DNA of 64,000 bases, from the NCBI RefSeq assembly GCF_044324875.1, contig NZ_CP172185.1. The stretch is one strand, 5' to 3'. The DNA is from Escherichia coli (GTDB lineage: Bacteria > Pseudomonadota > Gammaproteobacteria > Enterobacterales > Enterobacteriaceae). A program made the translations under genes and the position numbers. Position 1 is the first letter of the stretch, and each line of letters begins with the position of its first letter. Under the pieces are notes generated by a model. It was not told the DNA's origin. It saw only the letters and a list, made by a program, of their open reading frames with translations, and made no database searches. Shown in pieces: positions 14,504 through 14,906 of this stretch.

Positions 14504-14730
14504 TCACTCTTCGTTCTTTCTGAGCATTGCGTTCAGGATGGTCAGCAATTTACGCATACAGTCAACCAGCGCCACTTTTTTGGTTTTTCCGGCTGCTGGC
14601 AGATGCATGTAAAACGCCTCTATCACCGGATTAAACCAGGTTACCACAAGCGCTGCCATGTGCAGGGCTGCTCTTGCCTCCGTATGCGCACTGGCGTCGT
14701 TCGGCCAGCAGATATGTGTGGGATAACAGG
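14504..14730 (-). pseudogene. IS110-family transposase 3' remnant (C-terminal ~75 codons only)
   Basis: minus-strand translation ...[53 protein letters not shown] matches the conserved C-terminal motif of IS110-family transposases; frame closed by a stop ~75 codons upstream of the motif; the plus-strand ORF 14486..14779 is antisense to it. Confidence 0.5.
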
Positions 14731-14840
14731 GATGTTATGTGAACTGAACTGTGTTTTGTTAGCGGGGGATGTTTATTGATGATTCGGGAGTGTTTAAGAC
14801 CTGATGGCGTTATGCTCCCAAGTTTATTTTATATAAAGAT

Positions 14841-14870
14841 CCAAAAGCAAAAACCCGCCTTGTGGGCGGG
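14841..14870 (-). terminator. Rho-independent terminator-like hairpin
   Basis: CCCGCC-5 nt loop-GGCGGG stem followed on the minus strand by TTTTTGCTTTTGG. Confidence 0.55.
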
Positions 14871-14884
14871 TTCTTAAGAATTAG

Positions 14885-14906
14885 TGGTGCCGGACTCGGA
14901 ATCGAA
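14885..14906 (-). repeat. 22-nt copy of tRNA-Phe 3' end (island attachment-site direct repeat)
   Basis: minus-strand TTCGATTCCGAGTCCGGCACCA equals the 3' end of E. coli tRNA-Phe with one G missing from the GGG run; the terminator hairpin lies just beyond it, as downstream of a tRNA gene. Confidence 0.7.

What the first reader, a model, noticed from the sequence alone, without database searches (positions are those of the whole stretch)
14504..14906. Island boundary next to kpsF: tRNA-Phe 3'-end repeat, terminator hairpin and an IS110-family remnant
A 22-nt copy of the tRNA-Phe 3' end (minus strand, one G short) followed by a GC hairpin plus T-run reproduces the structure downstream of a phe tRNA gene. 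This is the expected attR-type direct repeat of a pheV/pheU-integrated island, so the accessory DNA to the right of 14906 is the distal part of that island and kps lies just outside it. An IS110-family transposase C-terminal remnant sits between the repeat and the kps region-1 promoter and could influence kpsF expression.
Basis: partly seen in the sequence, partly recalled or inferred. Interest (0 to 1): 0.55.

Follow-up and report, generated by a model that had tools for sequence, protein, structure and literature searches.

The report
pheV island right-end junction (attR)
This is the well-documented right-hand scar (attR) left when a pathogenicity island integrated into the E. coli pheV tRNA gene next to the capsule (kps) genes, plus an inert IS110 relic that almost all capsule-bearing strains share; it is real but ordinary.

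Summary
Window 14837-14906 (minus strand) matches the last 23 nt of E. coli tRNA-Phe with one G of GGG missing (22 nt, 14885-14906), followed by the 48-nt native downstream flank of pheV with its terminator. It is 70/71 identical to K-12 pheV. The flank is pheV-type, not pheU-type.

DNA to the right of 14906 is the distal module of a P4-integrase-type island (DUF4942, CbtA/YeeU, RadC, antirestriction). In strain Ch1, identical across the junction, intact pheV and an integrase lie 61 kb away. 209 complete genomes hold the exact empty site (yqgA-pheV-terminator-IS110 relic-kpsF). One of them, O17_K12a, is 99.9% identical to window 1-14906, and that alignment stops exactly at 14906.

The IS110 relic (14453-14673) is the last ~220 nt of an IS110-family element. 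It lacks the catalytic N-terminus. About 96% of genomes with the kps PR1 region carry it, at about -535 to -755 from PR1-1. Nothing suggests a strain-specific effect on kpsF.

The same imperfect repeat (TTCGATTCCGAGTCCGG-CACCA), the island between kpsF and pheV, its excision and the empty configuration are all published (PMC11537424, PMC10272209, PMC7387560). Verdict: already known, low interest.

The parts
14885..14906 (-). attR core: 22-nt copy of the tRNA-Phe 3' end (TTCGATTCCGAGTCCGG-CACCA), one G short of the 23 nt in pheV
   Evidence: The same sequence is listed as the attR of GI-pheV in PMC11537424 Table 1.
14837..14884 (-). Native chromosomal flank downstream of pheV, displaced from the tRNA gene by the island. 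Identical to K-12 up to GGATCT, after which K-12 and kps-bearing strains diverge.
   Evidence: The pheU flank is different.
14848..14876 (-). Original pheV intrinsic terminator (GC-rich stem, 5-nt loop, T-run)
   Evidence: inverted repeat I3
14907..15016 (.). Non-coding terminal arm of the island (the attP-derived arm of attR). About 90% conserved at attR junctions of the same island family at pheV without kps and at pheU. Contains two GGGTACA motifs (minus strand), which are candidate integrase arm sites.
   Evidence: The role of the motifs is inference only.
15017..15859 (-). Last gene of the island (DUF4942 family protein)
15952..20376 (-). Conserved distal island module: CbtA-type toxin, YeeU-type antitoxin, DUF987, RadC, antirestriction, DUF932 and GTPase genes
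14674..14836 (.). 163-nt spacer of unknown origin between the IS110 relic and the pheV flank. Seen only linked to kps.
   Evidence: no Rfam family; fold z = -2.8, not interpreted
14453..14673 (-). IS110-family relic: the last ~70 codons of the transposase (premature stop at 14504-14506) plus the 3' non-coding end of the IS. The N-terminal catalytic part and the 5' non-coding end are missing.
   Evidence: RefSeq annotation
13694..13918 (-). kps region-1 promoter region (PR1) and its 5' UTR. PR1-1 +1 is at about 13918, the published IHF site TTACAACCCATTG is at 13781-13769, and the kpsF ATG is at 13694.
   Evidence: positions taken from PMC5738388
12711..13694 (-). kpsF, the first gene of kps region 1

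Best explanation
The segment is the attR junction of a genomic island (GI-pheV, also called PAI-V) that a P4-like tyrosine integrase inserted into the 3' end of the chromosomal pheV gene. The chromosome already carried the group 2 capsule cluster next to pheV. Recombination between the island's attP core and the last ~23 nt of pheV had two results. The tRNA gene stayed intact at the far, integrase-proximal end (attL), where the island supplies a new downstream flank and terminator. The original tRNA 3' end copy, with the original pheV terminator, was stranded here at attR, about 970 bp upstream of the kps PR1 promoter. Shown: homology to pheV and its flank; the exact empty site in other genomes; pheV plus integrase at the other end in a strain with an identical junction. 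Inferred: the missing G belongs to the island's own attP core. Every attR examined, at pheV with kps, at pheV without kps and at pheU, has GG, while every intact tRNA has GGG. Strand exchange must therefore occur 3' of the G run, within about GGCACCA. The IS110 fragment is an older, inert relic belonging to the kps upstream flank and is not part of the island.
For: 70/71 identity to the K-12 pheV 3' end plus flank, and the 22-mer is unique in the window. The terminator is confirmed. The empty site yqgA-pheV-terminator-IS110 relic-kpsF occurs in 209 genomes at up to 99.8% identity (loci). Strain O17_K12a is 99.9% identical to window 1-14906, with the alignment ending exactly at 14906 and intact pheV beyond it. 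638 genomes share the same kps flank + repeat + DUF4942 junction. In strain Ch1 the order is yqgA, pheV, a 421-aa integrase (PHROG 1 integrase, E = 4.6e-63), ~61 kb of island, DUF4942, the repeat, then kps. Island without kps: strain C21. GG versus GGG: 5 of 5 attR copies have GG and 5 of 5 intact tRNAs have GGG (plus the window). The attL flank in Ch1 differs from the pheV flank and equals the sequence found after K-12 pheU. [quoted passage not shown]
Against: The window ends at 64000, still inside the island, and contains no tRNA or integrase. The other end in this particular genome is therefore unseen. No complete genome in the collection matches the whole window. The island cargo from 15037 to 63836 is most similar to an island at selC in another strain, so the island is a mosaic, and its present left end could have been remodelled. 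The crossover position and the attP origin of the missing G are inferred from junction comparisons, not from an observed attP circle.
Confidence: 0.95

Rival explanations
1. The fragment is a pheV pseudogene left by a deletion or rearrangement that truncated a second tRNA-Phe gene, rather than a duplication made by site-specific integration.
For: Some papers loosely call it a 'truncated pheV'. The copy is imperfect, with one G missing.
Against: The boundary at 14906 is the same to the base in islands at pheV with kps, at pheV without kps and at pheU. The precise empty site exists. An integrase sits next to intact pheV at the other end in Ch1.
Confidence: 0.02
2. The repeat marks a pheU-derived junction, or an island that was moved here together with pheU flanking DNA.
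For: pheU and pheV encode identical tRNAs. The same island family also sits at pheU.
Against: The 48 nt after the repeat are identical to the K-12 pheV flank and unrelated to the sequence after pheU. The neighbours are kps and, in relatives, yghD/gsp, which are the pheV neighbours.
Confidence: 0.01
3. kps and the island form one composite mobile element, so the repeat is internal to a larger pathogenicity island rather than its true end.
For: Older literature treats the capsule cluster as part of a composite pheV-associated PAI. kps is itself accessory and replaces 101 nt of the K-12 yghD-pheV intergenic region.
Against: kps occurs without the island in 209 genomes, and the island occurs without kps. 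No second tRNA repeat occurs in the window. kps has no integrase of its own (PMC10272209).
Confidence: 0.04
4. The IS110 relic, or the displaced terminator, acts in cis on kps region-1 expression. This is compatible with the main explanation.
For: The relic lies on the same strand upstream of PR1. The outer ~112 nt of the relic fall inside the -646 to +227 fragment used as the 'full-length PR1' reporter. The authors of that study speculate about cis elements beyond -646 to explain lower PR1-1 activity on the chromosome (PMC5738388). The pheV terminator would stop read-through from the island's DUF4942 operon, which points towards kps.
Against: The relic is present in about 96% of genomes carrying PR1, so it cannot explain strain differences. 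It lacks the transposase N-terminus and the IS 5' end. The consensus scan found no outward promoter in it. It lies more than 500 bp upstream of PR1-1. No experiment addresses it.
Confidence: 0.08

Closest known systems
GI-pheV / PAI-V (pheV-integrated genomic island with intP4/intB integrase) of ExPEC, APEC and other E. coli, as catalogued in PMC11537424 and PMC10272209
   Same: The attR sequence is identical, including the missing G. The position is the same, between pheV and kpsF. The distal yee-type module is the same, and both the occupied and the empty configurations are known.
   Different: Only the cargo differs. The window's cargo (PTS/transketolase, YadA-like adhesin, ABC transporter, S6 autotransporter) most resembles an island found at selC in strain ECCNB12-2. 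The integrase type of this particular island is unseen.
Satellite phage P4 and CP4-type cryptic prophage integration into tRNA gene 3' ends (own knowledge)
   Same: A tyrosine integrase recombines a short core identical to the tRNA 3' end. The element restores the tRNA at attL and leaves a partial copy at attR.
   Different: No phage structural or replication genes are present. This is a degraded, mosaic island.
IS110-family insertion sequences (NCBIfam NF033542, 'RNA-guided transposase')
   Same: The C-terminal ~60 residues and the 3' terminus are 87% identical in DNA to a full-length E. coli element (locus L007).
   Different: Only about 220 nt of a roughly 1.2-kb element remain. There is a premature stop, no DEDD catalytic domain and no 5' non-coding region, so the relic is not functional.

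Membership tests
attR of a tRNA-integrated genomic island (GI-pheV) | Direct repeat identical or nearly identical to the 3' end of the target tRNA gene | tested here: met
   22 of 23 nt match, with a 1-nt deletion
attR of a tRNA-integrated genomic island (GI-pheV) | The repeat is followed by the native chromosomal flank of that tRNA gene | tested here: met
   48 of 48 nt are identical to the K-12 pheV flank including the terminator. The pheU flank differs.
attR of a tRNA-integrated genomic island (GI-pheV) | An unoccupied site exists in related genomes, with a breakpoint at the repeat | tested here: met
   209 genomes hold the empty site. O17_K12a is 99.9% identical up to exactly 14906.
attR of a tRNA-integrated genomic island (GI-pheV) | Intact tRNA gene plus cognate integrase at the other end of the inserted DNA | not testable with these tools
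   The window ends inside the island and holds no tRNA. The feature is met in strain Ch1, which has an identical junction.
attR of a tRNA-integrated genomic island (GI-pheV) | Ability to excise by attL x attR recombination | not testable with these tools
   Excision is reported for this island type in PMC10272209. It was not tested for this strain.
IS110-family insertion sequence | C-terminal transposase domain (Transposase_20 / NF033542 C-terminus) | tested here: met
   NF033542 positions 282-342 of 343, E = 1.4e-8. Pfam PF02371 is weak, E = 0.083. DNA is 87% identical to a full-length element.
IS110-family insertion sequence | N-terminal DEDD catalytic domain and a complete element with both ends | tested here: not met
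   Homology to the full-length element stops at window 14673, and the upstream translation is unrelated and contains stops. This is a relic, not a functional member.
tRNA gene | Complete cloverleaf recognised by a tRNA finder | tested here: not met
   ARAGORN finds 0 genes in the window. Only the last 22 nt of the tRNA are present.
Intrinsic (Rho-independent) terminator | GC-rich hairpin followed by a T-run | tested here: met
   (12 pairs, 6 of them GC, tail CTTTTGG)

The most novel reading that the evidence does not exclude
The stretch from about -535 to -990 upstream of PR1-1 holds the IS110 relic, the 163-nt orphan spacer and the displaced pheV terminator. It could act as a cis-acting insulator or regulatory element. 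It would shield kps region 1 from transcription coming out of whatever island occupies pheV, and it would contribute to the chromosomal repression of PR1-1 that plasmid reporters ending at -646 fail to reproduce (PMC5738388).
Probability: 0.1. Interest if true: 0.35.

Novelty: already known. Interest (0 to 1): 0.1.

Why it matters
The junction correctly delimits a virulence island from the capsule locus, which helps in annotating this window. The biology is textbook and this exact sequence is already published: a tRNA-targeted island with an imperfect 22/23-nt attR next to kpsF, which can excise. The one small addition is the consistent GG (attR) versus GGG (tRNA) pattern across pheV and pheU sites. 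That pattern argues that the missing G is carried by the island's attP and that crossover is confined to the last few bases of the tRNA gene.

Tried and rejected
- **Rfam scan, 13600-15100:** only two sub-threshold hits, both on the terminator hairpin. No RNA family is present.
- **pheU origin:** rejected by comparing the flanks.
- **Chance match:** rejected, 0 expected.
- **Pfam on the 60-aa relic:** weak on its own. NCBIfam and DNA homology to a full-length element settled it.
- **Inverted repeat at 14385-14430, just beyond the IS end:** it folds no better than shuffled sequence (z about -0.5), so I dropped it.
- **Source genome:** three long queries found no complete genome covering the whole window. 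The far end of this particular island could not be inspected.
- **Link between the IS110 relic and kps regulation:** a search for papers holding both 'kpsF' and 'IS110' found nothing relevant.

Full report
**Observation**

On the minus strand, window 14906->14885 reads TTCGATTCCGAGTCCGGCACCA. K-12 pheV ends TTCGATTCCGAGTCCGGGCACCA, so the window holds the last 23 nt of tRNA-Phe with one G of the GGG run missing. The match does not stop at CCA. It continues through CTAATTCTTAAGAACCCGCCCACAAGGCGGGTTTTTGCTTTTGGATCT, the 48 nt that follow pheV in K-12. Overall identity is 70/71 with a single 1-nt gap, spanning window 14837-14906.

The 22-mer is unique in the window even when 3 mismatches are allowed, against none expected by chance. 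ARAGORN finds no tRNA gene anywhere in the 64 kb. The hairpin plus T-run is called as a terminator (stem 14876->14848) and dominates the predicted fold (z = -3.8). pheU encodes the same tRNA but is followed by a different sequence (AATTCATATAAACGGACCTCC...). The flank here is therefore specifically that of pheV.

**What lies on either side**

To the left, on the minus strand, lie kpsF (12711-13694), kpsE, kpsD and the rest of capsule region 1.

To the right, starting at 15017, lies a run of minus-strand genes: DUF4942, a CbtA-type toxin, a YeeU-type antitoxin, DUF987, RadC, an antirestriction protein, DUF932 and a GTPase. They were identified in two ways:
- 98.4-98.5% DNA identity to annotated RefSeq genomes;
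- PHROG matches to the window's own ORFs.

This is the conserved module found at the end of P4-integrase-type islands that lies farthest from the integrase.

**Test of the integration model**

I built a chimeric query from K-12 yqgA-pheV joined to the window's minus strand from 14884 down to 14300. It matched full length, in one piece, at up to 99.8% identity in 209 complete E. coli genomes. RefSeq annotates those loci as yqgA, tRNA-Phe, IS110 remnant. Strain C4 shows the order speC, yqgA, pheV, IS110 relic, kpsF, kpsE.

Strains O17_K12a, CB209 and 300033 are 99.9% identical to window 1-14906, and the alignment ends exactly at 14906. In O17_K12a an intact pheV adjoins the terminator. This is a near-isogenic empty site.

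Conversely, 638 genomes share the occupied junction of kps flank, repeat and DUF4942 island end. Strain Ch1 is 100% identical over the 301 nt across the junction. There the other end of the insert, 61 kb away, reads yqgA, intact pheV, then a 421-aa tyrosine integrase (PHROG 1 integrase, E = 4.6e-63).

The island also occupies pheV in strains without kps. In strain C21 the order is yghD, the K-12-type intergenic region, the pheV terminator, the repeat, then DUF4942. All four combinations of kps and island therefore exist. The two are independent acquisitions, and kps lies outside the repeat-bounded element.

**A detail on mechanism (inferred)**

Every attR copy I read has GG:
- the window;
- Ch1;
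- C21 at pheV without kps;
- two islands at pheU (L009, L010).

All five intact tRNA-Phe genes have GGG. Because the same deletion recurs at different chromosomal sites, it most likely belongs to the island's attP core. Strand exchange must then take place 3' of the G run, within about GGCACCA, so that attL keeps a functional tRNA.

The published attR variants of other integrase types also differ from the tRNA only 5' of CACCA (PMC11537424 Table 1), which fits this reading. In Ch1 the reconstituted pheV is followed by the sequence that follows pheU in K-12, including a different terminator. The island thus brings its own 3' flank, and the K-12 pheU flank looks like a relic of the same island family. 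RefSeq annotates an integrase fragment at the corresponding position in the pheU loci L009 and L010.

**The IS110 remnant**

The minus-strand ORF at 14504-14686 ends ...[54 protein letters not shown]. It matches the last 60 positions of NCBIfam NF033542 (E = 1.4e-8). Pfam is weak.

At the DNA level, window 14453-14673 is 87% identical to the 3' end of a full-length IS110-family element in another E. coli. That element's protein continues 11 residues further, so the relic carries a premature stop. Homology ends at 14453, the likely IS terminus. Nothing upstream of 14673 resembles the element, so the catalytic N-terminal domain and the 5' non-coding end are gone. The 163 nt between the relic and the pheV flank (14674-14836) match nothing else.

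**Does the relic matter for kpsF?**

The published IHF site TTACAACCCATTG (centred at about +140) lies at 13781-13769, and the kpsF ATG lies at 13694. Together these place PR1-1 +1 at about 13918 (PMC5738388). Relative positions follow:

| Feature | Position relative to PR1-1 |
|---|---|
| IS110 relic | about -535 to -755 |
| pheV terminator | about -930 to -958 |
| 22-nt repeat | about -967 to -988 |

Of 1693 genomes carrying the PR1 region, 1626 also carry the relic region. That is about 96%, so the relic is a near-fixed part of the kps flank and not a peculiarity of this strain. The standard 'full-length' PR1 reporter (-646 to +227) already includes its outer ~112 nt.

The authors of that study speculate about cis elements beyond -646. 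This leaves a small opening for a regulatory or insulating role, but nothing here supports one.

**Comparison with what is known**

- PMC11537424 lists TTCGATTCCGAGTCCGG-CACCA as the attR of GI-pheV in APEC O1, S88, ED1a, H10407, 042, 536, 55989, REL606 and others, and calls it a 23-bp imperfect repeat.
- PMC10272209 describes the PAI between kpsF and pheV, its 22-bp repeats, the intB integrase, at least 14 excision events in CC95 and the intact-pheV configuration.

The finding is therefore a correct reading of a known structure. No paper in the searched library discusses the IS110 relic upstream of kpsF, but it is routinely annotated by RefSeq.

**Limits**

The window stops inside the island, and no complete genome in the collection covers the whole window. 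The pheV and integrase end of this particular island was inferred from relatives. The cargo from 15037 to 63836 most resembles an island at selC in strain ECCNB12-2, which shows that these islands are mosaics.

**Verdict**

The structure is already known, so interest is low (0.1).

Noticed in passing
window 15037-63836; loci L003/L004 (NZ_CP033635.1): The island cargo is 98.4-99.8% identical to an island integrated at selC (tRNA-Sec) in strain ECCNB12-2. Only the last ~130 nt before the repeat are pheV/pheU-type. The shared cargo includes LacI/PTS/transketolase genes, a YadA-like adhesin, a YaiO/glycosyltransferase block, TRAP and ABC transporters, sodC and an S6 autotransporter. In strain Ch1 the pheV island carries a second, truncated integrase followed by the same TPR gene as the selC island. 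This suggests cargo exchange between islands at different tRNA sites.
   Followed up: partly
L005 8860-9140 (Ch1 attL) versus L006 (K-12 pheU): After island integration, pheV is followed by the sequence and terminator that follow pheU in K-12. The island therefore supplies the tRNA's new 3' flank, and the K-12 pheU downstream region appears to be a relic of the same island family. An integrase fragment is annotated at that position in L009 and L010.
   Followed up: partly
L009 and L010 (pheU-cadC region of strains T2 and EC361): At pheU the island end plus the GG repeat is joined directly to the integrase-side arm of a degraded resident element. This gives an attP-like junction, which suggests tandem integration into an older island relic.
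   Followed up: partly
window 881-5641: Capsule region 2 consists of two genes: a 1137-aa protein with a HAD-hydrolase domain and a 385-aa TPR protein. Window 1-14906 is 99.9% identical to a strain named O17_K12a, which hints at the K type. I did not verify the serotype.
   Followed up: no
window 59908-63732: A 1274-aa S6-family serine protease autotransporter (SPATE-like). NCBIfam recognises only the beta-barrel domain, and the specific SPATE was not identified.
   Followed up: no
window 14959-14977 (minus-strand GGGTACA x2) and L005 ~9060-9105: Short GGGTA(C/T)A motifs recur in the island-side arms of both attR and attL. They are possible integrase arm-type binding sites. I did not test them statistically.
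   Followed up: no
L002 4397-20537 (strain Ch1) versus K-12 L001: The whole kps cluster, with its IS110 relic, replaces 101 nt of the K-12 yghD-pheV intergenic region. It has no flanking repeat and no integrase, consistent with acquisition by homologous recombination rather than site-specific insertion.
   Followed up: partly
window 14690-14836: The orphan spacer between the IS110 relic and the pheV flank folds somewhat better than shuffled sequence (z = -2.8). It has no Rfam match and no homologue outside kps-linked loci. Its origin is unknown.
   Followed up: partly
window 33293-34831, 39901-41106, 47357-48262: Several IS transposase genes (IS66-like, IS1414/IS256-like, IS3-family) break up the island cargo. 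They sit at the points where the best-matching reference genomes change.
   Followed up: no
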